A stretch of DNA of 64,000 nt. It comes from an uncultured euryarchaeote (GTDB taxonomy: Archaea > Thermoplasmatota > Poseidoniia > Poseidoniales > Poseidoniaceae). The DNA lies in NCBI GenBank assembly GCA_963981035.1, contig CAXCCF010000005.1, positions 2,056 to 66,055 on the forward strand, written 5' to 3'. A program made the position numbers and the translations under genes. Below the pieces are notes generated by a model. The model saw only the letters and a program-made list of their open reading frames with translations, was not told where the DNA came from and searched no databases. This document shows, piece by piece, positions 1 to 28,476 of the stretch (position 1 is the stretch's first letter; the number at the start of each line of letters is the position of its first letter).

Positions 1-797
1 TGCTTTTGGCCAGCACCAGCGCCACGCATTGCTCTAAGCATATCTTGAATGGAATGCAAGCAACGTAGTGAAACGATGTAAAAGTGGTGAGCCTTGTCTG
101 CTTCTTTCTTTGAAGTTCTCAAGCCTCGATGTGCAGTTTCTGCCAGTTCTCTTTGACGGTCAACTTCGGAGTTCCAAAGAAGCATTAGTTCGTGTGCTTC
201 TTGAGCCGCAGTTGCAGCCTGTTGAACTTCTTCGTGTGCAATTTCTTGCAGTGCCATTGCTTCTTGTATTGCGGCTCGAGAATCCTTCAAATCAGTGTTA
301 GATTCTTCAGCAACCTTTAGTTTCTTTATCTGAGCAGAGATATCTTTCATTCTCTTCATTACCTTTGTTTCATTGTTTCCGGTGTGCCTTCCTTGCTCAA
401 ACTCATTTTCAAGTCTGTACAGTTCTTTTCTAAGTGATGGAATAGTTGCAGGTCTCTTTTCCCATTTCTTTCTGCCGCCTTGTTGTTCTCTCGGCGCAGG
501 TGCTTCTGGACCTTTTGCACTGTCAAATGCTAATTTTGCAGCCTTCACTGCATCACTGGCAGCAGAACGTGCAGACTTCTTTTCACGAACGATTTCGTTC
601 ATTTGTTCACGAATTTCTCTCTGTTCTCTGACTTGAACAATTAATTCTCTTACTTCGGCATTCAACTCGTTACGAACTGTGGTATGAGATTTGGTTTTTT
701 CATTCCATTCATCACGGGTAGTTCGGTATTGTGTAGCTTTGTTATCTACTAGTTTTCTACGTTCTTCGAGTTGAGTTTTGAAGTCTGACATTGTCAT
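1..797 (-). CDS. Archaeal coiled-coil protein, COG1340-like (C-terminus lies beyond the window edge)
   Basis: My own minus-strand translation is uninterrupted from ATG 797 to position 1 (MTMSDFKTQLEERRKLVDNKATQYRTTRDEWNEK...). AGGTG lies 3 nt upstream of ATG 797. Other in-frame ATGs are at 791, 872 and 890. The K/E/R/Q-rich heptad pattern is typical of the archaeal coiled-coil family. It is absent from the ORF track because no stop falls inside the window. Plus-strand ORFs 68-301 and 373-636 are its shadows. Confidence 0.7.
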   Translation of the reverse strand, partial: MTMSDFKTQLEERRKLVDNKATQYRTTRDEWNEKTKSHTTVRNELNAEVRELIVQVREQREIREQMNEIVREKKSARSAASDAVKAAKLAFDSAKGPEAPAPREQQGGRKKWEKRPATIPSLRKELYRLENEFEQGRHTGNNETKVMKRMKDISAQIKKLKVAEESNTDLKDSRAAIQEAMALQEIAHEEVQQAATAAQEAHELMLLWNSEVDRQRELAETAHRGLRTSKKEADKAHHFYIVSLRCLHSIQDMLRAMRGAGAGQK

Positions 798-1007
798 TCG
801 CACCTGTTCGGGGGGAAGATTCCCATCTTCTCGCCGACTCGCCCACTTTACTCCCCCATTTAACCCCTTCATTAGAGCCTTGACATCCATTATTGCTAAA
901 GACCATGCTGAAAGGGCTTTCAGCGAATTATTTTATCCTGCAAAATGAGAATATTATTTGTGATAATAGTTAAGGTGGGGGAGCACCTGTATACTACTGG
1001 TGAGGAT

Positions 1008-1691
1008 ATGTTTTTAGGGTCAATACAAGGTTTTGAACGAGTACTTCAGAATGATGTTAATTCGCCGTACATTACATTGGTAACAGGCCCACCTGGCTCA
1101 ATGAAGTCAAGTTTTTGTATGACTATGTTATCTAATCATCTCAATAGAACTGGTGAATTCGGATTATACTGTACAGTTGAAGAAAGTGTAGATTCACTCG
1201 TGCGTGGCTCTGCCAGTATGGGAATAAACATGCCAAATAATTTGCAGCTTACAGATTTCACCGAACTACGCAGGGAAAACGAAAATATGGATTATCTAAA
1301 ATTTACTAGAAGAATGATTGAGCATTTCAAGCAGCAACATGGTGAAAGATTTACTACTTTTGTACTTGATTCTCTAGGTGCAATATATTCATTGACTTCT
1401 GTAGACCAAGTAATGCGTAAGAAAATGTTTGGCTTCTTTGATTTCTTGCGAAGCATGGATCTCAATGTATTCATCATCACTGAGAGAAATGTCGGCTCAC
1501 ATGCTGAACTACAGGGTAATGAAGGATTCTTGGCTGATGCTGTAATCAATTTGGGAATGGATCAAAGAAATGGTAAACTGATCAGAACTTTACAAATTGA
1601 GAAAATGCGTCATTGCCGCCATGCCATGGAAAAGATGGCTATTGATGTGGGGCAAAATGGAATGGTCATTCTTGGCCCGCTATTTGACTAA
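1008..1691 (+). CDS. KaiC/RecA-superfamily ATPase (single-domain, COG0467-like)
   Basis: Walker A is GPPGSMKS and the Walker B-like strand is TTFVLDSLG. The N-terminus IQGFERVL resembles the KaiC/RadA-like GxxGxDxxL entry motif. The ORF opens at 945, but the domain boundary and a GGTGAGGA motif favour ATG 1008. Confidence 0.65.
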   Translation: MFLGSIQGFERVLQNDVNSPYITLVTGPPGSMKSSFCMTMLSNHLNRTGEFGLYCTVEESVDSLVRGSASMGINMPNNLQLTDFTELRRENENMDYLKFTRRMIEHFKQQHGERFTTFVLDSLGAIYSLTSVDQVMRKKMFGFFDFLRSMDLNVFIITERNVGSHAELQGNEGFLADAVINLGMDQRNGKLIRTLQIEKMRHCRHAMEKMAIDVGQNGMVILGPLFD

Positions 1692-1693
1692 AA

Positions 1694-2068
1694 TCATATT
1701 TGAAGTGCATTCAGTTCCTCTACTGCCTTTGCTAATGATTTTCTTATTAGGCCTAAGTTACACGATGGTTGTAACTTTACTACCAACAAATTATTTTTCT
1801 CTAAACGATTTGCAATCAATATCGCATTTTGTGATGTTATAGTTACCGATTGACTCTCCGGAGTATGTTCTAATACACCGATAATAGAGGAGAAATCGAG
1901 ATTTTGTTCAGAACTCTTCGCCACTGTAACTAGTCCATCTTGGTCCAATAACTGCGCACTGACAACTCCGTTTGAATTTTGCAACTCAGTAAGAATCCTT
2001 TGTTCCACATTTACTGCAGAAATGACAGGGGCATAACCTTTGAGATGTAATATTGACATTATTGGCAC
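1694..2068 (-). CDS. Roadblock/LC7 (MglB-like) domain protein
   Basis: The 124-aa product has the pattern NGVVSAQLLDQDGLVTV...SVTITSQNAILIANRLEKNNLLVVKLQPSCNLGLIRKSL, which matches the Roadblock/LC7 alpha-beta-alpha layout. Its start lies 3 nt after the upstream GNAT stop. Confidence 0.55.
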   Translation of the reverse strand: MPIMSILHLKGYAPVISAVNVEQRILTELQNSNGVVSAQLLDQDGLVTVAKSSEQNLDFSSIIGVLEHTPESQSVTITSQNAILIANRLEKNNLLVVKLQPSCNLGLIRKSLAKAVEELNALQI

Positions 2069-2071
2069 ATT

Positions 2072-2569
2072 TCAATATTTTTTCAAATCGCCACGCATCA
2101 TATATCCCAGTCCGCTAGAATAGTATCCCTTGAGTTCATTCATTATTACAAGGCCTCTTTTTCTATAGAATTCTTGCCCCCTAATATTTGATGCCTTCAC
2201 TTCTAATTGCACTTTACGATATCCTGCATTCAATGCACAATCAACGAAATGATTCCAAGCAAGGCTGCCTAATCCTTTACTTTGCAATTCTGAGCAAATA
2301 GAAAATGCTGCGACTCTGACAATGTCATCTTTGAATGGTGTGGACCAAAATAATCCCTTTAGACACTTAGCATTTGTATAATCAGTTCCTTCAAGCAGCA
2401 ATAAGTTGCCACCCCATTTTGGGATATTAAGATTTGAAACAGAAGCACTGGAATATTGTTCTCCATTTTCATTCAAAAATAGTTCCAAAACTTCATTTTT
2501 CCACTCAGAACTCAAGTTCTTTGGTTCTGGTCCTAACATCCATTGGATGCCATCTTGCACAATTATCAC
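2072..2569 (-). CDS. GNAT family N-acetyltransferase (RimI/Ard1-like)
   Basis: Acetyl-CoA binding motif A is QSKGLGSLAWNHFVDCALNAGYRKVQLEVKASNIRGQEFYRKRGL. The size, 165 aa, fits the family. Its start overlaps the upstream stop by 4 nt (ATGA). Confidence 0.8.
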   Translation of the reverse strand: MIIVQDGIQWMLGPEPKNLSSEWKNEVLELFLNENGEQYSSASVSNLNIPKWGGNLLLLEGTDYTNAKCLKGLFWSTPFKDDIVRVAAFSICSELQSKGLGSLAWNHFVDCALNAGYRKVQLEVKASNIRGQEFYRKRGLVIMNELKGYYSSGLGYMMRGDLKKY

Positions 2570-4587
2570 TCCTTACGGGAATTTTTTGAACGGCTTCTCG
2601 TCCCTCTATGGGCTGTTAAGTCTCTAGCAGAGTTGCTTCTTTTTGCACGAGAGTATTTTTTCTTAGGAGAATGCTTGTTTTGTTTTTCAGTTTCTGTAAA
2701 AATACTTCCTTTACTCAACAGGATATTTAGTTCGGACAACGACAAACCTTCTCCAGATTCCATTTTGGACTGCACTTTGGCAATGTCTTTCTTGCTAAAT
2801 GTCTTATAATTAGACTTGTTAAAATTCTTAGAGTATGATTTTATGGAATACTGCTTCTTGATAGATTCACTATGTTTCAGCCACGACTTTAATCGGCCTA
2901 ATTCTCTCTTTATTTTCCTTTTTTCAAGGTTAAGTTCTTCAAGATAGCGAGTAATCAAGTTTGAACTGCTGAAAAATGTATCAGAATTATTTTCTTTCGA
3001 AATATTATTTTTTATTGCTGAGGCTGAATCAGTTGATGTTGATAATTCTGAATTATTCTGATTCTTTACAAGTTCTATAAATTGGCCATGTAATTTGTCT
3101 GCTTCACGTGCCTTAGGTAACATTTCTTGCAGTTCAAAGAACAATGAGAAATCATTTTCTTCTGTGAGAATTGAAGGGACTCTAAAGATGTCAACTTCGC
3201 CGGTTAAGCGTTCGTAAATTCTTGACAACTCCTCTTCGATTCTATAGGTGGGGATTAGTATTTTCTTCTGTATTTCATCGCGCAATGTTGCGATTTCAGG
3301 GATTTTCTGCACCTTCTTCCTCTCTTCTAGACAAATAATGATTTTATTTTCTACTTCCTCCAATTGGGTAGTATTGATCTTGATTGAAGCATTTACTTCT
3401 TCCTTTCCTTTGCCTCTAAGGTCGTGGAATAAATCTAATTGTTTGTCCGAAACATGAGTTTCAGGATTTCTCAATTCACACAATTGTTGCCAGGAATCAC
3501 CATTACAAATACCAAACCACATACGAAGTATTTCTTCGTGAATATCCATTACCCCTTCTGCCCGAAGAACCGTACTTAGGTCTCTCTTCAAATCAAATGG
3601 GTCTTCAATTGGTAAACTATGTTTGCCGACTCTTTTTGATTCATCATTGATAATGATATCAATTGCAGTTGGGTCGTGCTCAATCCAGTTCTTTTCATCT
3701 CTAGAAAGAGGTGCCCCATTTCTAATGGAACATATGTCATTGGCCCAGTCCCAATTAGCAAATGTTTCAAAAAAGTGCACGATAATTTCTCCAAGTGTTT
3801 GCTGATTTTGTTGCTTTAGTAAATTCTTTGGATTTGGATGAATTGTAACATCGTATTCATCGCCTTCAACATTCTGAATGTTTCGTTTTTTACCAGATTG
3901 AACATTTGCGACCAAAGGCGGTGTAGTCATTTGCATTGATTGAATGCTCATCAGAGACCACGAATATGAGGATAAAGTCCCTGCAGGGGCATCGCTGACA
4001 TCTCGACACATCGCCCAATATTTTATCGCTAAAATTGCTTGCGAAACTCTTGCATCTTGCATAGAATACGTCTTGAGTAATTGAGTATTATGTAGTGCAA
4101 GTGTATTGTTTACTGATATGTCTAAGGGTATTCCTGTTTTGGCATCTCTGCATTTCACGATAGGTACCTTCGCATGTGGAATTACCACAATATCTACAAA
4201 GTCATATTGTCTTAGTAATTTGCCGATTTTATTGAAAATCTTCTTCGGAACTGTGCCCGATATTTGCAAGCATAAATCAAGGTCTCCTTGAGCTAATGAC
4301 AATCCAGTAACTGATGAACCGAATTTGTCTAATGTGCTTCCTGGGAAGCGAGATTCCAACAACTGTTTCAAGAATTTGAATAATTTTGTCCGGCTTTTGT
4401 CTTTCTTATTGTGTTCAAGTTGCTTGCGCAACATTTCAGTGACATCATCATTTAGTCTGGCAAGGGCTTCTTGAGGAATTTCCGCAGCCGTTGGAAATTC
4501 TAACTCACCGATTAATGCATTATGCAGATTTGGCCAGCGCCCCTGCTGCTCTGCAGTAAATTGAGTAATCGGGCAGATGTCAGCCAT
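2566..4587 (-). CDS. Cid1/GLD-2/TUTase-type terminal nucleotidyltransferase with C-terminal coiled-coil and Lys/Arg/Ser-rich tail
   Basis: The Pol-beta NTase signature is FGSSVTGLSLAQGDLDLCL. The third catalytic Asp lies in AKVPIVKCRDAKTGIPLDISVNN. The nucleotide-recognition motif is KYWAMCRDVSDAPAGTLSSYSWSLMSIQ. PAP-associated-like segments are LGEIIVHFFETFANWDW and LPIEDPFDLKRDLS. The C-terminal ~270 aa are heptad-rich and end in a basic tail. Confidence 0.8.
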   Translation of the reverse strand: MADICPITQFTAEQQGRWPNLHNALIGELEFPTAAEIPQEALARLNDDVTEMLRKQLEHNKKDKSRTKLFKFLKQLLESRFPGSTLDKFGSSVTGLSLAQGDLDLCLQISGTVPKKIFNKIGKLLRQYDFVDIVVIPHAKVPIVKCRDAKTGIPLDISVNNTLALHNTQLLKTYSMQDARVSQAILAIKYWAMCRDVSDAPAGTLSSYSWSLMSIQSMQMTTPPLVANVQSGKKRNIQNVEGDEYDVTIHPNPKNLLKQQNQQTLGEIIVHFFETFANWDWANDICSIRNGAPLSRDEKNWIEHDPTAIDIIINDESKRVGKHSLPIEDPFDLKRDLSTVLRAEGVMDIHEEILRMWFGICNGDSWQQLCELRNPETHVSDKQLDLFHDLRGKGKEEVNASIKINTTQLEEVENKIIICLEERKKVQKIPEIATLRDEIQKKILIPTYRIEEELSRIYERLTGEVDIFRVPSILTEENDFSLFFELQEMLPKAREADKLHGQFIELVKNQNNSELSTSTDSASAIKNNISKENNSDTFFSSSNLITRYLEELNLEKRKIKRELGRLKSWLKHSESIKKQYSIKSYSKNFNKSNYKTFSKKDIAKVQSKMESGEGLSLSELNILLSKGSIFTETEKQNKHSPKKKYSRAKRSNSARDLTAHRGTRSRSKNSRKE

Positions 4588-5352
4588 TCAAATCTCTCCG
4601 CCCTTGTTATTTTGTGATGCTTTTGTCTTGTTCATCTTTGATATCGCAGGGGTTGAATATTCACCTTCTCGCACTCTCTTGGCATTTACCAATAATCTAT
4701 CCAATCCTTTGTCAATCAATTGTTGCCAGTGTTCAATTCCTCTTTCGCTGTAATCAAGTGCTTGGCTGAGCAGAGCAGTACGCGAGTCTGCCCTCCTTCT
4801 CATCGCTTCATTTTCGAGATAAGTATTACTGAATTTTTCTTTGGCATCCTGCAAGGGTAATAGTTCATCATGCGAAAGTATTGATGCCGAAATCTCATTC
4901 AATGTGTCATTATGGTGTGATTCAAATTGTTCATCTGAACTATTTTTACCACTAAACTGATTGAAAGTTTCAGTTGTTAGATCTTTCATTTGGTCTAGGA
5001 CAATCCTTTGTTGATGATTATTTTCATTGGACTCTTTGTATATTTGCATCAATGAGAGAAATTCTTTTTTGGATTCTTCAGCAACAGCATCTTCAATAAA
5101 TTCACACATGCTTGAAAATAACTGGCTTGCTTTATTTTGAGATTGTAAACAATTGTCTAATATTTCGTTAATTTGCTTGTCAAAACCATCGCGGTTTTCT
5201 TTAGCAGTTCTGGTCAATGGTACTGCGACATCTAACTCTTCTTGACGAGCATCCAACTGTTCAGGAATCGCCTGCGCTAACCTCTCTCGACGATGCAAGA
5301 TGGCCCGAGCCAACAAGTCTGGGGTAATTTCCAGCAACTCGTCAGGTGTCAT
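4588..5352 (-). CDS. Hypothetical alpha-helical protein (first gene of the NTase operon)
   Basis: A 254-aa ORF with no motif I recognise, and composition consistent with long helices. Its stop directly abuts the NTase start codon with a 0-nt gap. Confidence 0.55.
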   Translation of the reverse strand: MTPDELLEITPDLLARAILHRRERLAQAIPEQLDARQEELDVAVPLTRTAKENRDGFDKQINEILDNCLQSQNKASQLFSSMCEFIEDAVAEESKKEFLSLMQIYKESNENNHQQRIVLDQMKDLTTETFNQFSGKNSSDEQFESHHNDTLNEISASILSHDELLPLQDAKEKFSNTYLENEAMRRRADSRTALLSQALDYSERGIEHWQQLIDKGLDRLLVNAKRVREGEYSTPAISKMNKTKASQNNKGGEI

Positions 5353-5445
5353 ACATTCTTGGGCGAACTTTCAACATGGGATAAACATGGCGCAAGGTCA
5401 TCTTTTGGCGTGAAGGTGAAGAACCCCTTTCGCATAGGTGGTAAC

Positions 5446-7950
5446 ATGGGGGAGTACAAAACATCATCAAACACGATGTCATACCTTGTATGTTCTCTTC
5501 TTATCACCGTCATTATTGCGCCCATAGTTTCTGCATCTGGTGGAGGCGCAGTGATTGATGTAAGTAGTATTCAACTTGATGAAATGGGTACCTTCGAGGA
5601 TAGTGAATTGAATGTCCCATTTACCATAGTAGAGCAAAGTGGCATTGATGCAGATGTAGAAGTTAATGTCATCATTTCTTCACTTGAAGGTGTTGAAATC
5701 CACAATCAATCAACAAATTATACTATTTTGGCATCTGGCAGTACACCAATCAATTACACATTTGCAAACATGCCGTTTGGTTTTTCTAACCTTGTTGTTA
5801 CAATGAGTGGTGATACTGGGACAGTAGATTCAAACTATGTCACGCAATTTAATCGTACAATTCAACGTCTGCGCCCTGCACTATTGTCCATTGAAGAAGT
5901 TTCAATAATTCCGGTTGATTTTATGGGTACTCCAACGGGTAATGAAAGCATTAGAGATGGAGATTATGTGATGATTAGTGCTGAAATAGAAAATCTTGGC
6001 GATATTCAATGGTCAAGCGATATCAACGTTGATATTATTGATCAAGATTTGTTTGAGACGCACGTAACACCGGCGACCTTTAATGCAGCGTCAACAACAA
6101 TAATACAAACTTACTCTTCTTCACAGTTTACCGAAAGTAGTACAAATATTAGTTCTCATATTTCGGTAAATGTTACAGTATCAGTTCCCCCTCCTTCTCA
6201 AAATGAACTATTCCAAGTCGGTACATTTGAGGTTGGTCCACCGCCTTTAGCGAGAATAGACATGGAACTATTGCATCTTAATTCTGAAGTAAATGCGGGA
6301 GGGGTTGCAATGTGGAATCTCTCGGTAGCGAATAACGGAGAAAGAGATTTCAATGGAACAGTCACTTGTATTTTCACTGGAGGTGAAGTTGAATATTCTA
6401 GTACAATAGGACTTTCACCAAACAATAGCATTACGATTTCAATAAGCGCATCAGCTCGTCCAGGCGTTCTTTCTTGTCAAACAGAAGGACAACGAATTTG
6501 GAATGATTCAATCAGCCCAGTTTACTCCACATTATCCATGACCGCTGCAGCATTTGAGGCAGCCGGATCAGCCACTCCTGCCACTTTGGGAGGTCCTTGG
6601 CATAAAGGTGATATTGCAACATTCTCAATGTTGGTGCGTAATCATGGCGATAGTGACGGGATGGTCCAATTACGTTGTGAAATAAATGGTGTAATCAGTT
6701 TGAGTGAACCACTTAATTTAGCCATTGATGCAGCAGGGGAAGTATCAGTTGCTATTCAAATGACTACTACAGGACAAAACCAAGTCAATTGGTCTTTAGT
6801 GTCTTCAGATGGTGCAATTGACTCTGGATTAGAAGGAATTATTCAAATTCCAGTTTCTGCCCAGCAAAGTATTGAGCCAAAGATAAACCTGGTAGAATGG
6901 GACTCGGCTGAAGGGATTTCTTTCACATGGCAAGTTGAACTTGATGTTGGAGTGGAAAGAGATATCCGTCTAAGGCTCGGTTTTGTTGCGGGTGGTTCAG
7001 AGAGTTATCCATATGATTCAGTAATCACAGTCTATCCGGGAATGACTGCCGGTCAATTTGATGTCGGGCATGTTGATGCGGATATGGTGGTAATAAGTAT
7101 TGATTCGATTAATTGGACACTAGGGCCTGGACCTACATCGGCAACAAAATCGGTACCATCTGAAAGACCGGTTTACTCGATTCAAATAAATCCACTTTCT
7201 ACACCAAGAGATCCAACCGCGGGTGATGAAACCAGCATTGTTGTGGAAATTTCTAATGACGGTGTCATTGATGGAATCTCCGGTCAACTCTTATTGGTTG
7301 ATGCAAGTGGAAACTTATTGGCTCAGAGCGATACTGATATTTTGCTATCAGGAGATTCAGAAGGAGTAATTCTCAGTATTGTTTGGCCATCTGGCGCTGA
7401 TGTAAAATTAACTGCAAAATGGAGTATTGGACAAGAAATAATCACTTCAAGTCAATCATTTACATCAGGCACCAATGAAGCATCTACTCAGTCTTATGAG
7501 ATTCCTTGGATTGGTATGATTTCAGGTATTGCAATAGCAGGTGCGGTAATTCTCGCATTTAGGCTCAAGAATACCTCAAAAGAGGTTGTTCCAAAAAGTC
7601 ACAAAAACAAGAATAATACTTCAAAACCAAAGAAGAAATCATCAAAATCAAAATCTTCAACTTCAAGCAGCGACAGAAAGGTGCAAGTTGGGTGTCCTGA
7701 ATGTGCAAGACAATTACGTGTTCCAGCATCATATTCAGGTAAAGTGAGGTGCCCAGATTGCTCAAACCGTTTTGATGTGACATCGAGAGAAGAATCAGAT
7801 AAAGAAGATGAAATTGAAGAAATAATAGAGCAAGAAAAGAAAGAAATTGCTTGTCCAGATTGCGCTCAATCATTGAGAGTTCCTACTGATTATTCTGGTT
7901 CTGTTCGCTGTCCAGCCTGCAAGGTGGTATTCAGTGCAAATTCTGAATAA
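5446..7950 (+). CDS. Type I membrane surface protein with Ig/CARDB-like repeats and cytoplasmic tandem zinc ribbons
   Basis: A signal/anchor segment MSYLVCSLLITVIIAPIVSASGG follows ATG 5446. The ORF-track start at 5293 would overlap the divergent gene. The long Thr/Ser/Asn-rich ectodomain contains CARDB-like segments (e.g. GDIATFSMLVRNHGDSDG). A TM helix, IGMISGIAIAGAVILAF, is followed by a K/S-rich linker and two CPxC-N17-CPxC units. Confidence 0.8.
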   Translation: MGEYKTSSNTMSYLVCSLLITVIIAPIVSASGGGAVIDVSSIQLDEMGTFEDSELNVPFTIVEQSGIDADVEVNVIISSLEGVEIHNQSTNYTILASGSTPINYTFANMPFGFSNLVVTMSGDTGTVDSNYVTQFNRTIQRLRPALLSIEEVSIIPVDFMGTPTGNESIRDGDYVMISAEIENLGDIQWSSDINVDIIDQDLFETHVTPATFNAASTTIIQTYSSSQFTESSTNISSHISVNVTVSVPPPSQNELFQVGTFEVGPPPLARIDMELLHLNSEVNAGGVAMWNLSVANNGERDFNGTVTCIFTGGEVEYSSTIGLSPNNSITISISASARPGVLSCQTEGQRIWNDSISPVYSTLSMTAAAFEAAGSATPATLGGPWHKGDIATFSMLVRNHGDSDGMVQLRCEINGVISLSEPLNLAIDAAGEVSVAIQMTTTGQNQVNWSLVSSDGAIDSGLEGIIQIPVSAQQSIEPKINLVEWDSAEGISFTWQVELDVGVERDIRLRLGFVAGGSESYPYDSVITVYPGMTAGQFDVGHVDADMVVISIDSINWTLGPGPTSATKSVPSERPVYSIQINPLSTPRDPTAGDETSIVVEISNDGVIDGISGQLLLVDASGNLLAQSDTDILLSGDSEGVILSIVWPSGADVKLTAKWSIGQEIITSSQSFTSGTNEASTQSYEIPWIGMISGIAIAGAVILAFRLKNTSKEVVPKSHKNKNNTSKPKKKSSKSKSSTSSSDRKVQVGCPECARQLRVPASYSGKVRCPDCSNRFDVTSREESDKEDEIEEIIEQEKKEIACPDCAQSLRVPTDYSGSVRCPACKVVFSANSE

Positions 7951-7986
7951 GCAAGCATTGATGGGTATGAAGGAACTGGGATTGGT

Positions 7987-8643
7987 ATGGGTGGACATTT
8001 TCAAGAGTTTGAGGATGAATACTTAGAAGCAATGTACAGTTATTACGAAAATGATCCGGAATTGCTTGTTAGAACTGGAGAAATAGCTAGAACCCTACAA
8101 GTTTCACCGGCATCAGCAACAGAAATGATACAAAGATTAGCATCAAAGGGTTTGGTGAATTACATACCATACAAAGGCGCCAGTCTTACTGAACTAGGTC
8201 TTTCAGTGGGTATGCAGATGAAGAGAAGACATCGTTTGGCCGAGGTACTTTTGGAAAAATTACCATTTTTTGGTAATGTCCACGAAACCGCATGCAGACT
8301 AGAGCATGCAATTGATGATGATCTGGAAATAGCACTATCACTATTGTTGAACCAACCAAATATTGACCCCTCAGGAAGGCCAATTCCTCCTGCAAGAGAT
8401 GATTTAGCAACGGTAATTGAGACTCATGCAAGCGTATTACGTCCGATGAGTTCTATTTCCAACAATTGTGAAGGTGAGATTAGAATGATGGTCGTCAGTG
8501 AAACGGGTATGAAATCGTTATCAGATATTGGTGTTAGTATTGGTACTCATGTCAAGAAAATAAATGGACGATGGCAAACTTCCGAAGGGGCATATTTTGA
8601 GATATCTGAAAGATTAGCAGAAAAAATACTATTGCGTTGTTAA
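7987..8643 (+). CDS. DtxR/MntR-family metal-dependent transcriptional regulator with FeoA/SH3-like C-terminal domain
   Basis: The wHTH region is GEIARTLQVSPASATEMIQRLASKGLV. The dimerisation/metal-site region is RRHRLAEVLL...HETACRLEHAIDDDL. The 218-aa length is typical of the family. Confidence 0.85.
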   Translation: MGGHFQEFEDEYLEAMYSYYENDPELLVRTGEIARTLQVSPASATEMIQRLASKGLVNYIPYKGASLTELGLSVGMQMKRRHRLAEVLLEKLPFFGNVHETACRLEHAIDDDLEIALSLLLNQPNIDPSGRPIPPARDDLATVIETHASVLRPMSSISNNCEGEIRMMVVSETGMKSLSDIGVSIGTHVKKINGRWQTSEGAYFEISERLAEKILLRC

Positions 8644-8692
8644 GATGGAATTTCTGGTCAACAGTAAAAAGCAATAACCGCTCCCTATTGCT

Positions 8693-10261
8693 ATGGAGGG
8701 GTCAGATGTGCAGATTGAAACCTCCATGAAAGATAAATCGAGGTCGAGAAAAGGAATTTTTTCAAAGATAATGGCAGTTTCTCCTATTGGTGAAAAGGCA
8801 ACAGTCAAGGAGTGGGAAGCAATATTTCTTGCCATTGACAAGCAAATCATTAGTTTTGGTCTTAGATTAATATTATTTTTACCAGCATTTGCAATGTTTA
8901 CTTATTTCATAGCATGGGCATTTTCAACAGGTTCTCCTGAGTGGTGGTTGAAAAATATTGAACCTACTCTGGATTTGACCTTTTCAATTACCTTAGTTGC
9001 AATTACTTTTGTTATTATGTTTGGATATATATTGGCAATAATAATTCACCAGCATAGAGTTAGCCTTTCATGGAGCGTCTTTAACGATGAGATTAGAATC
9101 TCAAATGATGCGCATAGACCCGTACAATCTTTACAAGGGTACGATGGGTTAGTCGATAGGATGAATAGGACCCGTAGAAAGACAAAATCTAGTTTAATTT
9201 TGGCTATGATGAGTGCATCCCTATTATGCATAATATTCTATATTGGTTCAGAGCATAAATCTGCGATGATTTTACTATTTGGCTCCTTTTCTCTGATGCT
9301 ATTATCAATTGGGCAACAATTGGCTACTAGGTCTAATCAATTCAGCATGGTTGACCGTACCGGATTACTTGATGCCTATGAGCCAGCGATTCACCCGTCA
9401 ACAATAAACTCAGTATTCAATGATTTACTAATTACACACATGGATCCTTTGATGAGGGCTCAATATGTTGATTTCATAAAAAGAATAGAAGAAAATATTC
9501 ACGCCAATGTGGAAGTTGATTATGCAAGAGAAAAGATGCTGATGACACTGTATAGGCACTCGTGTGGTTTGGACCGTAATACGATGAATTCTGAACTATC
9601 AGAAATAATGAATGATAAAGGCCTGGAGTTAATTGTATCACATGATGTGTTTACATTGGAAATATGGATTTCATTGATTGAGCATGTCAAAAAATCATGC
9701 CCAGCATTTTTTAGAATGATCGATAGATTGGAACATGAGATTGAAGTTGGTAACGATCCTGCTTTGAAAGATTTGGTATTCGAAGTGGATTTGGAAAACG
9801 TAGTAACCAATAGAGCGAACCTATTTACAATAATTCATAATCTTAGCTCAGAAGAGAGAACGGTTGTCTTTAGAGTTCAAACACCTGATTTCCGGCCTAA
9901 TGATGTAGCCCTTACTTACAGGCTTATGCCAGGTGAAAAATATTGGTGGTCTGATAAAGCGCTGCCAAGTGTTGCTGAAGGTGATGAGGACACACTAGGG
10001 ATGATGAGTGGATTACTCAGAGATGGAACAGTTGCCTGGCAATCACTATTGCCTACCACTAATGGTGAAGCAACAATTTCAGTTCGCCTTGAACAGAAGA
10101 GTGGTGAATTATTAGTTGGTAAGCAGATAAATGTCAGAGTTCGTTCTGAATTTAGAGCAATGGTCCGTTCTTCCGGTTCACTCGCTGCCAATCTCATAGG
10201 AACTCTTGGATTATTAAGCGCAATATTTATGCAAATATATGCATTATTCGGTCAATTATAG
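8693..10261 (+). CDS. Hypothetical multi-pass membrane protein
   Basis: A 522-aa ORF with several hydrophobic helices in the N-terminal half, a soluble middle region, a beta-rich C-terminal region and a terminal TM (LIGTLGLLSAIFMQIYALF). I recognise no family. Confidence 0.5.
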   Translation: MEGSDVQIETSMKDKSRSRKGIFSKIMAVSPIGEKATVKEWEAIFLAIDKQIISFGLRLILFLPAFAMFTYFIAWAFSTGSPEWWLKNIEPTLDLTFSITLVAITFVIMFGYILAIIIHQHRVSLSWSVFNDEIRISNDAHRPVQSLQGYDGLVDRMNRTRRKTKSSLILAMMSASLLCIIFYIGSEHKSAMILLFGSFSLMLLSIGQQLATRSNQFSMVDRTGLLDAYEPAIHPSTINSVFNDLLITHMDPLMRAQYVDFIKRIEENIHANVEVDYAREKMLMTLYRHSCGLDRNTMNSELSEIMNDKGLELIVSHDVFTLEIWISLIEHVKKSCPAFFRMIDRLEHEIEVGNDPALKDLVFEVDLENVVTNRANLFTIIHNLSSEERTVVFRVQTPDFRPNDVALTYRLMPGEKYWWSDKALPSVAEGDEDTLGMMSGLLRDGTVAWQSLLPTTNGEATISVRLEQKSGELLVGKQINVRVRSEFRAMVRSSGSLAANLIGTLGLLSAIFMQIYALFGQL

Positions 10262-10320
10262 AATTGAATAGTCTTGTAAGCCATCCACAGCCTTGAAATG
10301 GTAAATGCAGTGGAGGAGTC

Positions 10321-11328
10321 ATGCGCGGAATGAAAGATGACGCTGAGGAGAAGCCTGATGCGGACCTTCGTGAAGAACTTCAGACGATGGAAGCGAAAGT
10401 TCGCAAATTGCGTGAAACACGTAATTCATTCAGCGATTCTGCTAAGCAGAGTGCTGATAAGCGCAATGCAATCCAGGCACAATTCAAGGAACACAGAGAG
10501 AAATCAGCTCTTGTTCTTTCAGAAGTAAAAGTAATTCGTGCGGAAATAAAATTGTTTAAAGAGAAGCGCAATGCAATTCAAGACCAAATCCGCCAACTAA
10601 TCTCGCAAGCAAAGGGTCGTCGCGGTGAAAAGAAAGAGAAGCGTTCAGCTACAGCTGAATTTGCTCAACTAAGACAAGAGGTTGACAACTTAGAGAGAAC
10701 TTTTGAAACATCAAGCGTTGGTGCAAAGAAAGAGAAAGAAATGATGGCTAGTCTAAAATTAAAGCATCGCCGTCTTGCAGAATTAGAACCAGAGGTTGCA
10801 CATTTTGACCTTGTTAGCGTTGATTTGTCAGATTTGGATGGTTCAATAAAAATTCTAAAGGCCGAAGCGGATGCAGCACATACAGCAATGATAGAAGCAG
10901 TTGGCCGCGTTACTGAAAAATCAAAGGAATTGGATGAAGTATTTGCCCACCGTGATTTCCTCAAAGCAGAAGGAGACCGGTTCCATGAAGAATATCTTGA
11001 ATTTAGAAAGAAGGCTGATGATATGCATGCAAAGACTGTTGAGTTGATGAAGGATGTTGACAAAGCACGTGACCAATTAAAACTTGCAAAGAAGGAGAGA
11101 GAATCTTGGATTACCGACCATAACCAATCTGTCAAAAATCAGATGTCATCGGGAGCTAGTTCCGAAGATGTTGCTAACGATTTAGTTAGTAGTCTAATGT
11201 CTTCAGGTTCTTTGACGATTGGTGGGACAAGTGGAGCAGAAAACAGTGCAAAATCCCGCCTTCCTATTGGGAAGTCATCTAAGAAAGCCGGAATGCGCCG
11301 AATAAATATGCAGAATCGTCGCCGATGA
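10321..11328 (+). CDS. Archaeal coiled-coil protein, COG1340-like (paralogue of the gene at 1-797)
   Basis: A continuous K/E/R heptad pattern runs through LREELQTMEAKVRKLRETRNSF...AHTAMIEAV...HEEYLEFRKKADDMHAKTVELMK. This has the same architecture as the partial gene at the window start. Confidence 0.7.
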   Translation: MRGMKDDAEEKPDADLREELQTMEAKVRKLRETRNSFSDSAKQSADKRNAIQAQFKEHREKSALVLSEVKVIRAEIKLFKEKRNAIQDQIRQLISQAKGRRGEKKEKRSATAEFAQLRQEVDNLERTFETSSVGAKKEKEMMASLKLKHRRLAELEPEVAHFDLVSVDLSDLDGSIKILKAEADAAHTAMIEAVGRVTEKSKELDEVFAHRDFLKAEGDRFHEEYLEFRKKADDMHAKTVELMKDVDKARDQLKLAKKERESWITDHNQSVKNQMSSGASSEDVANDLVSSLMSSGSLTIGGTSGAENSAKSRLPIGKSSKKAGMRRINMQNRRR

Positions 11329-11329
11329 G

Positions 11330-12409
11330 GTGGAATTGATGTATGGGGTCATCATGGCTGGTGGTCAGGGTTCAAGACTGCGCCCATTGACATTAACACG
11401 ACCAAAACCAATGGTTGAAGTTCTAGGCAGGCCAGTTATTGATTTCGTAAAGGATGCGATGTTGGAAGCCGGTATCGACAATGTAATTGTCACTACAGGA
11501 TATAGAGGGGAACAACTGCAAAAGCATGTTTCTACTTGGCCGCAGCAGGCACAAATTTCTCATAACCGGGAAATTTCAGCACGAATTAATCAAGAACATT
11601 CTCCAATGGGAACGGCTGGAAGTGTTCGCCTTTTGGGTGAATTATTAACTGAAACTTTTGTTGTTGGTTCTGGTGATTCAGTAGCATCGTTTGATATTTC
11701 AGGACTATTGCAAGCCCACAAACAAAGTGGTGCAAAAGTAACCATGGCACTGTGGGAAGTGGAAGATCCTAGTGATTTTGGAATTGTTGGATTATCCGAA
11801 TCCCATAATGGTGTGTTGGATGGAAATCTACGCGAGGGATATATTAGAAAATTCAAAGAAAAGCCAAGTCCACAAGAAGCATTTAGCAATGTGATAAATG
11901 CTGGATTGTACATAATTGAGCCAGAAGTATTAGATTTAGTCCCACATGGTGAAAAGTTTGATTTTAGTAAACAATTATTTCCATTGGTTTTGGAAATGAA
12001 TTGGCCAATGTATGCCAAGACAATCGATGGTGTTTGGTTTGATGTTGGAAATCCAATGGAATTACTCAACGCTCAATCAACATTGGTCAAGAGGATGAAT
12101 GAATTGCCCTTCCCTATTCCAGATGGAACTCTCCTCCCAGGAGATGGGTTCTGTATGGGCAATACGGAAAATCTTGGTGAAGTTACCAGCAGCGTAATCT
12201 CTTCCGATTGCCAAATACAAAAGGAAGTAGTTATTTCTAATTCATTATTGATGTCTGGATGCAGTATTGGTACGAATTCATCTATTACAAAATCTGTTCT
12301 TGGTCAAGATGTAGTGATTGGAAATGGATGTAATTTACACAATGTTGTGCTAGGAGATGGAACCGTTATTGACGCTGACACCAATCTTTCAGATCAAAAA
12401 ATTCCATGA
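11330..12409 (+). CDS. Sugar-1-phosphate nucleotidyltransferase with C-terminal left-handed beta-helix
   Basis: The N-terminal signature is MAGGQGSRLRPLTLTRPKPMV. C-terminal hexapeptide repeats run SIGTNSSITKSVLGQDVVIGNGCNLHNVVLGDGTVI. A GTG start is given by the ORF track. Confidence 0.85.
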   Translation: MELMYGVIMAGGQGSRLRPLTLTRPKPMVEVLGRPVIDFVKDAMLEAGIDNVIVTTGYRGEQLQKHVSTWPQQAQISHNREISARINQEHSPMGTAGSVRLLGELLTETFVVGSGDSVASFDISGLLQAHKQSGAKVTMALWEVEDPSDFGIVGLSESHNGVLDGNLREGYIRKFKEKPSPQEAFSNVINAGLYIIEPEVLDLVPHGEKFDFSKQLFPLVLEMNWPMYAKTIDGVWFDVGNPMELLNAQSTLVKRMNELPFPIPDGTLLPGDGFCMGNTENLGEVTSSVISSDCQIQKEVVISNSLLMSGCSIGTNSSITKSVLGQDVVIGNGCNLHNVVLGDGTVIDADTNLSDQKIP

Positions 12410-16638: not shown

Positions 16639-16665
16639 TGCCCTGTCCATGGTAAGAGCGGAATA

Positions 16666-28401: not shown

Positions 28402-28476
28402 GGGCGTATGGGTTAGTTTGGCCTATACTCGGGCGTTTGGGACGCTTGGACCCAAGTTCAAATCTTGGTACGCCCA
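28402..28476 (+). tRNA. tRNA-Pro (anticodon UGG)
   Basis: Folded by hand. The acceptor is GGGCGTA/TACGCCC. The anticodon stem is GGGCG/CGCTT with loop TTTGGGA. The T arm is CCAAG-TTCAAAT-CTTGG and the discriminator is A. The D stem is weak. No CCA is encoded. Confidence 0.85.

What the first reader, a model, noticed from the sequence alone, without database searches (positions are those of the whole stretch)
1694..5352. Translationally coupled four-gene operon: unknown helical protein, Cid1-like NTase, GNAT acetyltransferase, Roadblock/LC7
The four minus-strand genes are packed with junctions of 0 nt (4588/4587), a 4-nt ATGA overlap (2566-2569) and 3 nt (2072/2068). That packing argues for co-expression and stoichiometric coupling. 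I know of no described system that combines an RNA-tailing-type NTase, an acetyltransferase and a Roadblock/LC7 module, which usually acts as a GTPase or ATPase regulatory platform. A KaiC-like ATPase (1008-1691) converges on the operon end, and a COG1340 coiled-coil gene sits next to it. This is my best candidate in the window for an undescribed RNA- or protein-modification or regulatory system.
Basis: inference. Interest (0 to 1): 0.7.

Follow-up and report, generated by a model that had tools for sequence, protein, structure and literature searches.

The report
Eukaryote-type RNA-tailing enzyme operon in archaea

Summary
The four minus-strand genes exist and the domain calls hold: a DUF7121-like coiled-coil protein (A), a Cid1/TUT-type nucleotidyltransferase, an Ard1-type N-terminal acetyltransferase and a divergent Roadblock/LC7 protein. 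The order A-NTase-GNAT-Roadblock is essentially invariant in about 80 Poseidoniales species.

The genes are not equally coupled. A/NTase overlaps by 4 nt in 74 of 80 species. NTase/GNAT is tight (about -4 to +9 nt). The 3-nt GNAT/Roadblock junction is an artefact of the longest ORF: the conserved start gives a 63-nt spacer holding a conserved promoter-like DNA element. KaiC is present in only 24 of 85 loci.

The whole 12-gene block is syntenic, so gene order alone does not prove a four-part machine.

The NTase catalytic module matches TUT7, URT1 and Cid1 (TM 0.8-0.9). Its catalytic residues are invariant in 83 sequences. Every named relative outside Poseidoniales is eukaryotic.

The conserved core is A plus the NTase's novel C-terminal domain. 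One lineage has a catalytically dead enzyme, and one clade has lost the catalytic domain and A's central coiled coil together, yet both keep the operon.

Verdict: a new archaeal variant of a known enzyme kind. The four-protein system is unproven.

The parts
4588..5352 (-). Gene A: 254-aa helical coiled-coil protein. It is a divergent paralogue of the DUF7121 (COG1340-type) archaeal coiled-coil family and the proposed partner of the NTase.
   Evidence: ORF. The window protein has no Pfam hit, but its L001 orthologue hits DUF7121 at 40 bits against a cut-off of 29. hhalign gives A~X 86%, X~F 96% and A~F 54%. It lies upstream of the NTase in 82/82 loci with room. The junction is a -4 overlap in 74/80 species and 0 nt in the window. 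Its central coiled coil is deleted together with the NTase catalytic domain in L090/L092/L093.
3463..4587 (-). NTase catalytic module (residues 1-375): a Cid1/TUT4/TUT7/URT1-type terminal ribonucleotidyltransferase, made of a Pol-beta palm plus a PAP-associated domain.
   Evidence: Pfam MTPAP-like_central 3e-30, PAP_assoc 3e-11, TUTase 9e-8. PDB sequence hits: TUT7 1e-45, TUT4, URT1, CutA, Cid1. AF2 pLDDT is about 90 in this region, and Foldseek gives URT1 TMt 0.90 and TUT7/Cid1/CutA 0.8-0.9. G90/S91 (4315-4320), D102 (4282-4284), D104 (4276-4278) and D156 (4120-4122) are invariant in 83 sequences.
3583..3585 (-). Arg335 codon. This position aligns with the UTP-selecting histidine of Cid1 (H336) and URT1.
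   Evidence: Alignments to URT1 ('DPFETSHDL') and Cid1 ('DPFEISHNV') against the window's 'DPFDLKRDL'. The position is His in 73 and Arg in 10 of 83 family members. The Arg group is the window's clade plus L003/L004/L032/L041.
2566..3435 (-). NTase C-terminal domain (residues 385-673). It has long helical hairpins, a short two-helix 'LSLxELDxLLSxGGL' motif and a disordered K/R/S-rich tail. It is specific to Poseidoniales and has no known relatives.
   Evidence: Conserved motifs DLFxDLR, FFELQxM, RRExGRLEAW, LSLxELDxLL and HRGxRG. The AF2 model has helices at 395-442, 447-462, 473-512, 535-585, 599-610 and 617-625, and a tail with pLDDT <50. No Pfam or PDB sequence hits. Not DUF7121 by hhalign (<6%). 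It occurs as a stand-alone 252-282-aa protein in L090/L092/L093.
4594..4602 (-). GGCGGAGAG, a Shine-Dalgarno-like purine tract inside the 3' end of gene A, 6 nt upstream of the NTase ATG.
   Evidence: Read from the sequence. Equivalent GGTGA/GGAGG tracts occur in the relatives' A 3' ends. Function is inferred, not shown.
2072..2569 (-). GNAT: an Ard1/RimI-type N-terminal acetyltransferase homologue (165 aa from GTG 2569; more likely 162 aa from GTG 2560).
   Evidence: Pfam Acetyltransf_1 5e-7; NCBIfam rimI 3e-10, below threshold. Best PDB sequence hit is 4pv6, T. volcanium Ard1. AF2 pLDDT 93. The Foldseek top 10 are all 4pv6 (TMt 0.83), followed by RimI, NatD, SsArd1, NatC and Naa50. The family profile against the Thermoplasmatales Ard1 profile gives 98.9% and E 3e-17 over residues 17-151. 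AAGGAG at 2569-2574 sits 8 nt before GTG 2560.
2029..2043 (-). Conserved promoter-like element TCAAAGGTTATGCCC in the GNAT-Roadblock spacer, about 20-35 nt upstream of the Roadblock gene's conserved start.
   Evidence: The exact 12-mer AAAGGTTATGCC occurs once in each of 13 deeply diverged loci, always in this spacer. The element lies in different reading frames in different clades, so it is conserved as DNA. AAGGTT is enriched in the -50 to -13 windows of this genome's genes (4 observed, 0.58 expected, p=0.003), and a near-identical copy lies upstream of gene 16666-17034.
1694..2008 (-). Gene D: a divergent Roadblock/LC7-fold protein (104 aa from the conserved GTG; the longest ORF extends to 2068).
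   Evidence: The window protein hits Pfam Robl_LC7 at E 0.014, below threshold. The family profile (A2) against PDB gives 7f8m Robl_LC7 at 1e-5 over the full length, then 9jue and the MglB entries 6h5b/6izw/6hjm. Eight of 18 members hit Robl_LC7, best 2.4e-5, and others hit LAMTOR5 or MAPKK1_Int. Present in 77 loci.
5375..5389 (-). CATGTTTATCCCATG: a candidate promoter element about 23-37 nt upstream of gene A, in the 93-nt divergent spacer (5353-5445) shared with the CARDB/zinc-ribbon membrane protein gene.
   Evidence: Read from the sequence. It is conserved in close relatives L006-L008 and resembles the GGTTATGCC element upstream of D. Inferred only.
945..1691 (+). Single-domain KaiC-like ATPase, convergent on the Roadblock gene. 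It is a variable neighbour and not a fixed part of the cluster.
   Evidence: Pfam KaiC ATPase 1e-30. Present in only 24 of 85 loci. Where it is present it is 77% identical across lineages whose NTases are <45% identical.
1..890 (-). Gene F: a DUF7121 coiled-coil paralogue whose 3' end is cut by the window edge. The likely true start is Met33 at 794. In KaiC-less genomes it directly follows the Roadblock gene on the same strand.
   Evidence: Translation. DUF7121 at 30.8 bits against a cut-off of 29. The order D-F-PurP is seen in most loci, with a median D/F gap of 94 nt.

Best explanation
The locus is a Poseidoniales-wide operon. Its functional core is a two-protein module: gene A, a DUF7121-derived coiled-coil protein, and a composite NTase.

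The NTase's N-terminal 375 residues are a eukaryote-type Cid1/TUT4/TUT7/URT1 terminal ribonucleotidyltransferase. It was most likely acquired once from a eukaryote by the Poseidoniales ancestor (inferred). It is joined to a lineage-specific C-terminal domain made of long helical hairpins, a short two-helix motif and a basic disordered tail.

Proposed mechanism. A and the NTase are made in fixed proportion through start/stop-overlap translational coupling, and they assemble through their coiled coils (inferred). The basic tail and helical domain tether the complex to RNA or a ribonucleoprotein (inferred). The catalytic module adds untemplated nucleotides to RNA 3' ends. In most lineages this is probably uridine, because the UTP-selecting histidine is present. 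In the window's clade, where that residue is arginine, the preference may be altered.

The Ard1-type N-terminal acetyltransferase is co-transcribed directly behind the NTase. It is most simply the lineage's protein N-alpha-acetyltransferase, travelling in the same transcript. The Roadblock gene follows from its own promoter-like element and, with the downstream DUF7121 paralogue, is at most a loosely associated scaffold or regulatory component. KaiC is not part of the unit.

Shown: the genes, folds, catalytic residues, taxonomic restriction, junction statistics and the domain-loss variants. Inferred: the A-NTase complex, the RNA substrate, U-tailing, the horizontal transfer and the internal promoter.
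For: Fold and family. Pfam, PDB sequence and structure searches all place residues 37-375 in the Cid1/TUT family.

Active enzyme. G90/S91 and the catalytic Asp triad (D102, D104, D156) are invariant in 83 species-level sequences. The histidine equivalent to Cid1 H336 is present in 73 of 83.

Eukaryotic affinity. An exhaustive search of 1.84 billion representatives finds about 13 Poseidoniales clusters (223-758 bits). The score then drops to 184 bits for two-domain TUT7-like proteins. All 13 named outgroup hits are eukaryotes: molluscs, Amoebozoa, Fabomonas, Pigoraptor, fungi, Rozella and a haptophyte. All 80 best genome hits are Poseidoniales.

A-NTase coupling. The junction is a -4 overlap in 74 of 80 species, against 6-37% of pairs at <=4 nt for the other block pairs apart from NTase/GNAT (61%, inflated by over-extended ORF calls). 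A and the NTase have the same divergence, 37% median identity to the window copy. Coiled-coil lengths co-vary, Spearman 0.54 against 0.28 and 0.02 for the paralogue controls. In the L090/L092/L093 clade the catalytic domain and A's central coiled coil are both deleted, while the overlap-coupled short A and C-terminal-domain gene pair remains.

GNAT as Ard1..

Roadblock promoter..

Not defence or viral. PADLOC gives nothing for the four proteins, there are no viral contigs, and the chromosomal position is fixed.
Against: There is no direct evidence for an A-NTase complex or for any RNA substrate.

The catalytic domain is inactivated in one lineage (L086/P0234: G90D, D102E, D104G, D156N) and absent in one clade, while the rest of the operon persists. 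The conserved role of the module therefore cannot be nucleotidyl transfer alone.

The window enzyme has Arg at the UTP-selectivity position, so uridylation is not assured for this copy.

The GNAT is glued to the NTase (gap about -4 to +9 nt) in all lineages and keeps an unusually conserved N-terminal half. That could mean a dedicated role and not a passenger one.

The length co-variation rests on only 2-4 independent indel events.

The direction of transfer, and the polarity of loss against a pre-fusion state, rest on an unrooted or midpoint-rooted NJ tree of two proteins.
Confidence: 0.55

Rival explanations
1. One reading: all four proteins (A, NTase, NAT, Roadblock) form one stoichiometric complex, a single new RNA- or protein-modification or regulatory machine. 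In it the acetyltransferase and the Roadblock dimer directly modify or regulate the NTase or its substrates.
For: The order A-NTase-GNAT-Roadblock is invariant in about 80 species and in every variant, including the dead-enzyme lineage and the lineages lacking the catalytic domain. NTase/GNAT spacing is too small for a promoter. Thermoplasmatales Ard1 is not linked to any of these genes, so the linkage arose in this lineage and has been kept since. The GNAT's N-terminal half is very strongly conserved. The NTase tail and the DUF7121 paralogues X and F share a short C-terminal 'DLxxLLSxGxL' peptide, which might dock to a common partner such as the Roadblock dimer (weak, 60%).
Against: The whole 12-gene block, including unrelated housekeeping genes, is just as invariant. 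GNAT/Roadblock spacing is variable (median 15 nt, up to about 70), and the spacer holds a conserved promoter-like element. The Roadblock gene is equally contiguous with the downstream DUF7121 and PurP genes. The GNAT is a full-length Ard1 homologue and the only NAT-like ORF in the window. No case is known of these families acting together.
Confidence: 0.17
2. Incidental operon. The four genes are functionally unrelated core genes, kept adjacent only by vertical inheritance in compact, rarely rearranged genomes. Even A and the NTase do not interact.
For: The genome is 94% coding, and 24% of same-strand pairs in the window have gaps of 4 nt or less. A 12-gene mixed-function block is conserved as a unit. 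The operon continues into PurP, a purine-synthesis gene, in most lineages.
Against: Synteny breaks down immediately outside the block, so rearrangement does occur. The A/NTase -4 overlap is kept in 93% of species, far above other pairs. A's central region and the NTase catalytic domain were lost together in one clade. A and the NTase have matched divergence and matched coiled-coil length changes.
Confidence: 0.15
3. Scaffold-first reading. The essential, conserved function belongs to A plus the helical/basic C-terminal domain, for example a nucleic-acid- or membrane-associated coiled-coil assembly related to the DUF7121 network. The TUTase domain is an accessory effector recruited to it, is dispensable, and in some lineages is a pseudo-enzyme like the inactive N-terminal NTase domain of TUT4/TUT7.
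For: The dead catalytic domain in L086 retains a full C-terminal domain. A stand-alone C-terminal-domain protein with a short A occurs in three samples. The C-terminal motifs are as invariant as the catalytic ones. Three DUF7121 paralogues surround the locus.
Against: Catalytic residues are invariant in 83 of 84 full-length sequences, so catalysis is under strong selection in nearly all lineages, including the window. The degenerate lineages are few. This reading overlaps with the best explanation rather than excluding it.
Confidence: 0.1
4. The NTase belongs to a mobile anti-virus or toxin-antitoxin-like conflict system, for example MNT/CD-NTase-type signalling or a GNAT toxin that acetylates aminoacyl-tRNA.
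For: Pol-beta NTases and small GNATs are common in defence and TA systems (general knowledge). The KaiC neighbour gives a weak PADLOC 'mad8' hit, E 2e-4.
Against: PADLOC has no hit for any of the four proteins. There are no copies on viral contigs. The locus has a fixed position and is universally present across an order, which is the opposite of a defence island. The fold is specifically Cid1/TUT and not CD-NTase or MNT. The GNAT is closest to Ard1.
Confidence: 0.03

Closest known systems
Eukaryotic Cid1-family terminal uridylyltransferases / non-canonical poly(A) polymerases (human TUT4/TUT7, Arabidopsis URT1, S. pombe Cid1, Aspergillus CutA)
   Same: The same two-lobe catalytic module, a Pol-beta palm plus a PAP-associated domain. 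Sequence E down to 1e-45, Foldseek TMt 0.8-0.9, about 25-40% identity. The hG[GS] motif, the Asp triad and, in most family members, the UTP-selecting His are all present.
   Different: It is found in an archaeal order instead of eukaryotes. It lacks CCHC zinc knuckles and the N-terminal disordered or Lin28-interacting modules. Instead it carries a roughly 290-aa helical/basic C-terminal domain with no detectable relatives. It is encoded in an operon, overlap-coupled to a coiled-coil partner. The window copy has Arg where the selectivity His sits.
NTase-plus-obligate-partner complexes (TRAMP Trf4-Air2, GLD-2-GLD-3/RNP-8, TENT4-ZCCHC14, TUT4/7-Lin28)
   Same: The working analogy: a Cid1-family enzyme with no RNA-binding domain of its own relies on a partner protein for substrate choice and stability. 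Here a partner is implied by conserved translational coupling and by co-deletion.
   Different: The partner is a DUF7121-type coiled coil, unrelated to zinc-knuckle or KH partners. The interaction is inferred and not shown. This comparison rests on my own knowledge of those complexes.
Inactive N-terminal NTase domain of TUT4/TUT7 (Lin28-interacting module)
   Same: A Cid1-type domain that has lost its catalytic residues but is kept as a structural module, as in the L086/P0234 lineage. PDB entry 6iw6 appears among the hits.
   Different: In Poseidoniales the dead domain is the only NTase domain of the protein and is confined to one lineage. The window enzyme has an intact active site.
Archaeal Ard1 / bacterial RimI N-terminal acetyltransferases (T. 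volcanium Ard1 4pv6, S. solfataricus Ard1, E. coli RimI)
   Same: Full-length profile homology (98.9%, E 3e-17). Best structural match, TMt 0.83. It has the QxxGxG acetyl-CoA motif and the C-terminal 'GYY...G.GYMM' hairpin typical of NATs.
   Different: Only about 20% identity to Thermoplasma Ard1. The N-terminal half is unusually conserved within Poseidoniales. It is permanently placed directly behind the NTase, whereas Thermoplasmatales Ard1 lies between an XPD-type helicase and SAM synthetase.
Roadblock/LC7 (MglB-type) platform proteins
   Same: The family profile matches solved Roadblock proteins over their full length (7f8m 1e-5; MglB entries).
   Different: No small GTPase partner is encoded nearby. 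The sequence is very divergent: 18-35% identity within the family, and the window copy is below the Pfam threshold. Some lineages carry an 84-aa form with an internal deletion.
DUF7121 / COG1340 conserved archaeal coiled-coil proteins
   Same: Gene A's orthologues pass the Pfam DUF7121 threshold, and two clearer paralogues (X at 10321-11328, F at 1-890) lie in the same block. COG1340 has been described as a highly conserved archaeal coiled-coil group of unknown function (PMC1322226).
   Different: A is shorter and much faster evolving than X and F (37% against 61-64% median identity), and it is dedicated to the NTase. I could not test the equivalence of DUF7121 with COG1340 or arCOG01159.

Membership tests
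Cid1/TUT-family terminal ribonucleotidyltransferase (TENT) | Pol-beta-type palm with the hG[GS] motif and three catalytic carboxylates | tested here: met
   G90-S91, D102, D104 and D156 are present in the window protein and invariant in 83 sequences. Pfam MTPAP-like_central 3e-30, 105 bits against a cut-off of 27.
Cid1/TUT-family terminal ribonucleotidyltransferase (TENT) | PAP-associated (PAP/OAS1 substrate-binding) domain forming the second lobe | tested here: met
   Pfam PAP_assoc 3e-11, 43.8 bits against 22.6. The predicted structure superposes on URT1, TUT7, Cid1 and CutA over about 340-360 columns with TMt 0.8-0.9.
Cid1/TUT-family terminal ribonucleotidyltransferase (TENT) | UTP-selecting histidine in the nucleotide-recognition loop (Cid1 H336), which defines the uridylyltransferase subset | tested here: not met
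   The window protein has Arg335 at the aligned position. Seventy-three of 83 family members have His and 10 have Arg. The window enzyme therefore cannot be filed as a uridylyltransferase on this criterion, although most of its orthologues can.
Cid1/TUT-family terminal ribonucleotidyltransferase (TENT) | Template-independent addition of ribonucleotides to RNA 3' ends | not testable with these tools
   Requires a biochemical assay or 3'-end sequencing.
Ard1/RimI-type N-terminal acetyltransferase (NAT) | GNAT fold with the Q/RxxGxG/A acetyl-CoA-binding motif | tested here: met
   Pfam Acetyltransf_1 5e-7, 30.5 bits against 20.7. The 'QSKGLGS' motif is conserved as QxxGxG. AF2 pLDDT 93.
Ard1/RimI-type N-terminal acetyltransferase (NAT) | Closest relatives and closest fold are NATs and not other GNAT subfamilies, over the full length | tested here: met
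   The Foldseek top 10 are all T. volcanium Ard1, followed by RimI, NatD, SsArd1, NatC and Naa50. hhalign against the Thermoplasmatales Ard1 profile gives 98.9% and E 3e-17 over residues 17-151. The NCBIfam rimI equivalog is below its cut-off, 40 bits against 86, so it is not a RimI equivalog.
Ard1/RimI-type N-terminal acetyltransferase (NAT) | Being the genome's general (housekeeping) N-alpha-acetyltransferase | not tested
   It is the only NAT-like ORF in the 64-kb window. No whole Poseidoniales genome could be scanned for a second NAT, and activity is untestable here.
Roadblock/LC7 | Match to the Roadblock/LC7 profile above the curated threshold | tested here: inconclusive
   The window protein scores 15.6 bits against a cut-off of 23. 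Eight of 18 family members hit Robl_LC7 at E up to 1 (best 2.4e-5), and others hit the related LAMTOR5 and MAPKK1_Int families. The family profile finds solved Roadblock proteins first, 7f8m at 1e-5 over the full length.
Roadblock/LC7 | Association with a small GTPase or other NTPase that it regulates (MglA/MglB-type pairing) | tested here: not met
   No GTPase is encoded in the conserved block. The only adjacent NTPase, KaiC, is present in 24 of 85 loci.
DUF7121 (PF23435) archaeal coiled-coil family | Pfam DUF7121 match above the gathering score | tested here: inconclusive
   Window gene A has no hit. Its L001 orthologue scores 40 bits against 29, while the L003 and L005 orthologues had no hit in my scan although the precomputed table lists L003. 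hhalign gives A~X 86% and A~F 54%. Coiled-coil composition can inflate such scores.
Single translationally coupled four-gene operon | All three internal junctions too short for independent initiation, and conserved as such | tested here: not met
   A/NTase meets it: -4 in 93% of species. NTase/GNAT largely meets it: modal gaps of -4 and +9. GNAT/Roadblock does not: only 29% of species are at <=4 nt, the median gap is 15 nt, the window gap is 63 nt from the conserved start, and the spacer holds a conserved promoter-like element.
Anti-phage defence / toxin-antitoxin system | Match to known defence families, patchy distribution, or a location in variable islands | tested here: not met
   No PADLOC hits for the four proteins. 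No viral copies. The locus has a fixed position within a conserved 12-gene block in all species.

The most novel reading that the evidence does not exclude
Poseidoniales run a genuine RNA 3'-uridylation (or other tailing) pathway, a process so far treated as eukaryotic. It would be carried out by a horizontally acquired TUTase built into an archaeal coiled-coil machine in which gene A, the Ard1-like acetyltransferase and the Roadblock protein are physical subunits or regulators. That would make it a new multi-enzyme RNA-fate system, with degenerate scaffold-only versions in some lineages.
Probability: 0.15. Interest if true: 0.85.

Novelty: new variant of a known kind. Interest (0 to 1): 0.62.

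Why it matters
Untemplated uridylation or adenylation of RNA by Cid1-family enzymes is a central eukaryotic way of marking RNAs for decay, maturation or silencing. I found no report of such an enzyme in archaea.

[quoted passage not shown] That suggests an unrecognised layer of RNA metabolism in ecologically dominant, uncultured organisms. It would also be an old, successful eukaryote-to-archaeon transfer of a regulatory enzyme.

The natural series of active, inactivated and deleted catalytic domains, with a retained partner and C-terminal domain, offers a ready-made dissection of what the module does. It also gives a first functional handle on one branch of the DUF7121/COG1340 coiled-coil proteins, a widespread archaeal family of unknown function.

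The enzyme is directly testable in vitro, and by looking for non-templated 3' tails in existing marine metatranscriptomes.

Tried and rejected
1. Relating the NTase C-terminal domain to DUF7121. hhalign gave <6% in three comparisons and 2.6% with curated alignments. Only a 13-residue tail motif is shared with paralogue X (60%). I rejected this as homology and kept it as a lead.

2. PDB sequence-profile searches for DUF7121 and for the C-terminal domain gave nothing significant.

3. Defence-system and viral origin. PADLOC and the IMG/VR scan were negative.

4. Looking for an ancestral NAT-Roadblock-DUF7121 cluster outside Poseidoniales. Thermoplasmatales Ard1 loci (L087-L089) show an unrelated context.

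5. The GNAT single-sequence homologue search returned only Poseidoniales orthologues, so it could not settle whether a second NAT exists.

6. The bacterial-type promoter and terminator scan gave counts close to the shuffled controls and does not apply to archaea.

7. The first crude TATA-motif scan upstream of the genes was uninformative, because the longest-ORF starts are over-extended. It was replaced by the spacer alignment.

8. Literature. No paper in the held library links Poseidoniales or archaea to Cid1/TUT-type enzymes. The KaiC-hub paper (PMC5717392) is not held. The equivalence of DUF7121 with arCOG01159/TK2157 could not be checked.

9. NCBIfam gives only sub-threshold SMC/Rad50 coiled-coil noise for the DUF7121 paralogues.

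10. Length co-variation between A and the NTase coiled coil is positive, but it rests on too few independent events to carry much weight.

Full report
**Observation**

The window holds four consecutive minus-strand ORFs at 5352-4588 (254 aa, 'A'), 4587-2566 (673 aa), 2569-2072 (165 aa) and 2068-1694 (124 aa, 'D'). Pfam confirms a Cid1-type nucleotidyltransferase (MTPAP-like_central 3e-30, PAP_assoc 3e-11) and a GNAT (5e-7). The Roadblock call for D is below threshold, and A has no hit.

Direct reading of the junctions gives the following:
- A/NTase is TGA|ATG, 0 nt, as stated.
- The NTase/GNAT overlap is GTGA, not ATGA. An AAGGAG site at 2569-2574 is ideally spaced for an in-frame GTG at 2560, so the junction may be a 5-nt spacer.
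- The 3-nt GNAT/D gap depends on a non-conserved N-terminal extension. The family alignment starts at 'VEQRIL' (GTG 2008), giving a 63-nt spacer.

KaiC (945-1691, +) converges on D, and a DUF7121 coiled-coil gene lies beyond it. The genome is 94% coding, and 8 of 34 same-strand neighbour pairs are within 4 nt. Packing in this one window is therefore only mildly unusual.

**Conservation**

The NTase has full-length relatives (about 690-730 aa) down to 32% identity, all from Poseidoniales / Marine Group II.

I called ORFs in 85 fetched loci and classified them with iterated profile searches. The order A-NTase-GNAT-D is essentially invariant. A precedes the NTase in 82/82 loci with room, the GNAT is found in 80 loci and D in 77. 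KaiC is present in only 24.

The same holds for a larger block: sugar nucleotidyltransferase, DUF7121 paralogue X, a 500-aa membrane protein, a DtxR-type repressor and a CARDB/zinc-ribbon membrane protein on one strand; A, NTase, GNAT, D, (KaiC), DUF7121 paralogue F and PurP on the other. Each position is occupied by the same family in about 90% or more of loci, counting the optional KaiC insertion, while synteny dissolves just outside it. Gene order is therefore selected or at least very stable, but it does not by itself single out the four genes.

Junction statistics do discriminate:

| Junction | Result across species |
|---|---|
| A/NTase | -4 overlap in 74/80; <=4 nt in all |
| NTase/GNAT | modal gaps of -4 and +9 nt |
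| GNAT/D | <=4 nt in 29%; median 15 nt |
| D/F | median 94 nt |
| Other block pairs (Y/X, X/W, W/V, V/U) | <=4 nt in 13-37% |

**The NTase**

Residues 37-375 match TUT7 (1e-45), TUT4, URT1, CutA, Cid1 and GLD-2 by sequence. The AlphaFold model is confident over the catalytic module and superposes on URT1, TUT7, Cid1 and CutA at TMt 0.8-0.9. G90/S91, D102, D104 and D156 are invariant in 83 sequences.

The residue aligned with the UTP-selecting histidine of Cid1 (H336) and URT1 is His in 73 members. It is Arg in 10, including the window (R335).

An exhaustive search of 1.84 billion cluster representatives finds about 13 Poseidoniales clusters. The score then drops sharply to two-domain TUT7-like proteins. 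Every named outgroup hit (13 of 20 sampled) is eukaryotic. No copy is found on viral contigs. I infer a single ancient eukaryote-to-archaeon transfer. The direction is an inference from distribution and not from a rooted tree.

**The C-terminal half (385-673)**

This region is as conserved as the active site, with motifs DLFxDLR, FFELQxM, RRExGRLEAW, LSLxELDxLLSxGGL and HRGxRG. It is predicted as long helical hairpins, a short two-helix motif and a disordered basic tail. It has no Pfam or PDB relatives and is not detectably DUF7121.

**Gene A**

A's orthologues pass the DUF7121 threshold, and profile comparison links A to paralogues X and F. A and the NTase have the same divergence (37% median identity), whereas X and F are at 61-64%. 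Their coiled-coil lengths change together, although through few independent events.

**Natural variants**

The most divergent member (P0234, L086) has lost G90, D102, D104, D156 and the SSY motif. It keeps the whole C-terminal domain and the operon.

Look-ups anchored on the GNAT revealed three contigs from three samples (L090, L092, L093) in which the catalytic domain is absent altogether. A 252-282-aa protein matching only the C-terminal domain (E 3e-28 in L090) is still overlap-coupled by 4 nt to a shortened A (133-141 aa) that has lost its central coiled coil. GNAT, D, F and PurP follow.

On an NJ tree of F+GNAT these three form one clade nested among NTase-bearing lineages labelled both MGIIa and MGIIb. 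L086 lies elsewhere. The parsimonious reading is two independent degenerations. The co-deletion is the best evidence here that A's central region works with the catalytic domain, and that A's ends work with the C-terminal domain. It also shows that the module has a role beyond catalysis.

**The GNAT**

The best PDB sequence hit is T. volcanium Ard1. The model (pLDDT 93) matches Ard1 first, then RimI, NatD, SsArd1, NatC and Naa50. The family profile aligns to the Thermoplasmatales Ard1 profile over nearly its full length (98.9%, E 3e-17). It is an N-terminal-acetyltransferase-type enzyme and the only one in the window.

In Thermoplasmatales, Ard1 lies between an XPD-type helicase and SAM synthetase, with none of these neighbours. 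The linkage is therefore specific to Poseidoniales. Whether it is the only NAT of these genomes could not be tested.

**Gene D**

The family profile finds solved Roadblock/LC7 and MglB proteins first (7f8m 1e-5, full length), and 8 of 18 members hit the Pfam model. No GTPase is nearby.

The GNAT-D spacer contains the element (G)TC-AAAGGTTAWGC-CCC about 20-35 nt upstream of D's conserved start. The exact 12-mer recurs in 13 deeply diverged loci, only there. It sits in different reading frames in different clades. Related AAGGTT..ATGCC elements are enriched upstream of other genes in the window (4 observed against 0.58 expected, p=0.003). I read it as an archaeal BRE/TATA-type promoter for a leaderless or short-leader D transcript. 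This is an inference.

**Synthesis**

- The firmly supported unit is A + NTase, with the Ard1-type NAT obligatorily co-transcribed.
- The Roadblock gene is adjacent but probably separately initiated, and in most genomes it is followed on the same strand by F and PurP.
- KaiC is an optional insertion.
- The enzyme is a new archaeal variant of the Cid1/TUT family, with a new C-terminal domain and a new partner.
- The claim that four proteins form one machine remains possible (about 0.15-0.2) but is not required by the data.
- Defence or mobile-element readings are rejected.
- I found no prior description in the searchable literature.

Noticed in passing
window 1-12409 (and L001, L003, L005, L086 etc.): A 12-gene block is conserved across Poseidoniales while the flanks vary. 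It runs: sugar nucleotidyltransferase, DUF7121 paralogue X, 522-aa membrane protein, DtxR-type repressor, CARDB/zinc-ribbon membrane protein | A, NTase, GNAT, Roadblock, (KaiC), DUF7121 paralogue F, PurP. It holds three DUF7121 paralogues within about 12 kb.
   Followed up: partly
window 945-1691 (+): The single-domain KaiC-like ATPase is present in only 24 of 85 loci, inserted convergently between the Roadblock gene and F. Where present it is 77% identical across lineages whose NTases are <45% identical. This suggests strong constraint or recent spread within the order.
   Followed up: partly
window 2566-2760 (NTase tail), 11130-11328 (X tail); F tails in L001/L003/L090: The NTase, paralogue X and paralogue F all end in a similar short peptide ('D-L-x-x-L-L/M-S-x-G-x-L'). 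The NTase and X both follow it with a basic tail containing 'KKxGMR[RK]'. Profile comparison of the NTase and X tails gives 60%, E 8.5e-5 over 13 columns. It may be a shared docking motif.
   Followed up: partly
window 16625-16645 (upstream of gene 16666-17034, +), also upstream of 21419, 28843(-), 52794(-), 61357: AAGGTT..ATGCC-type elements recur about 30-45 nt upstream of start codons; for example CAAGGTTGATGCCCTG before 16666. This may be the BRE/TATA-like promoter signature of this genome.
   Followed up: partly
window 906-925: A perfect palindrome, GCTGAAAGGGCTTTCAGC, lies in the 54-nt spacer between the divergent F and KaiC genes. The terminator scan flagged it on both strands. It could be a regulator-binding site or a bidirectional structure.
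   Followed up: no
window 5293-5445: The longest ORF of the CARDB/zinc-ribbon membrane protein (from 5293) overlaps the start of gene A by 60 nt. Orthologues and the signal/TM-like sequence suggest the real start is ATG 5446, which leaves a 93-nt divergent promoter region.
   Followed up: partly
window 41088-41385 (+); 34991-35064 (-); 28402-28476 (+): An archaeal RNase P RNA (229 bits) and two tRNA genes were found by Rfam. This is consistent with an archaeal chromosomal origin for the window.
   Followed up: no
window 3300-3400 region of the NTase (alignment columns 429-460 of A1): The window's NTase clade has a 32-residue deletion in the first long helix of the C-terminal domain relative to most orthologues. 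A second clade (L005-like) has a shorter deletion. Gene A is correspondingly shorter in both.
   Followed up: partly
L001, L045, L048, L059, L064 (gene D orthologues): Some lineages carry an 84-aa Roadblock variant that lacks about 10 residues after the first strand and the C-terminal helix. Most of these loci also have KaiC.
   Followed up: no
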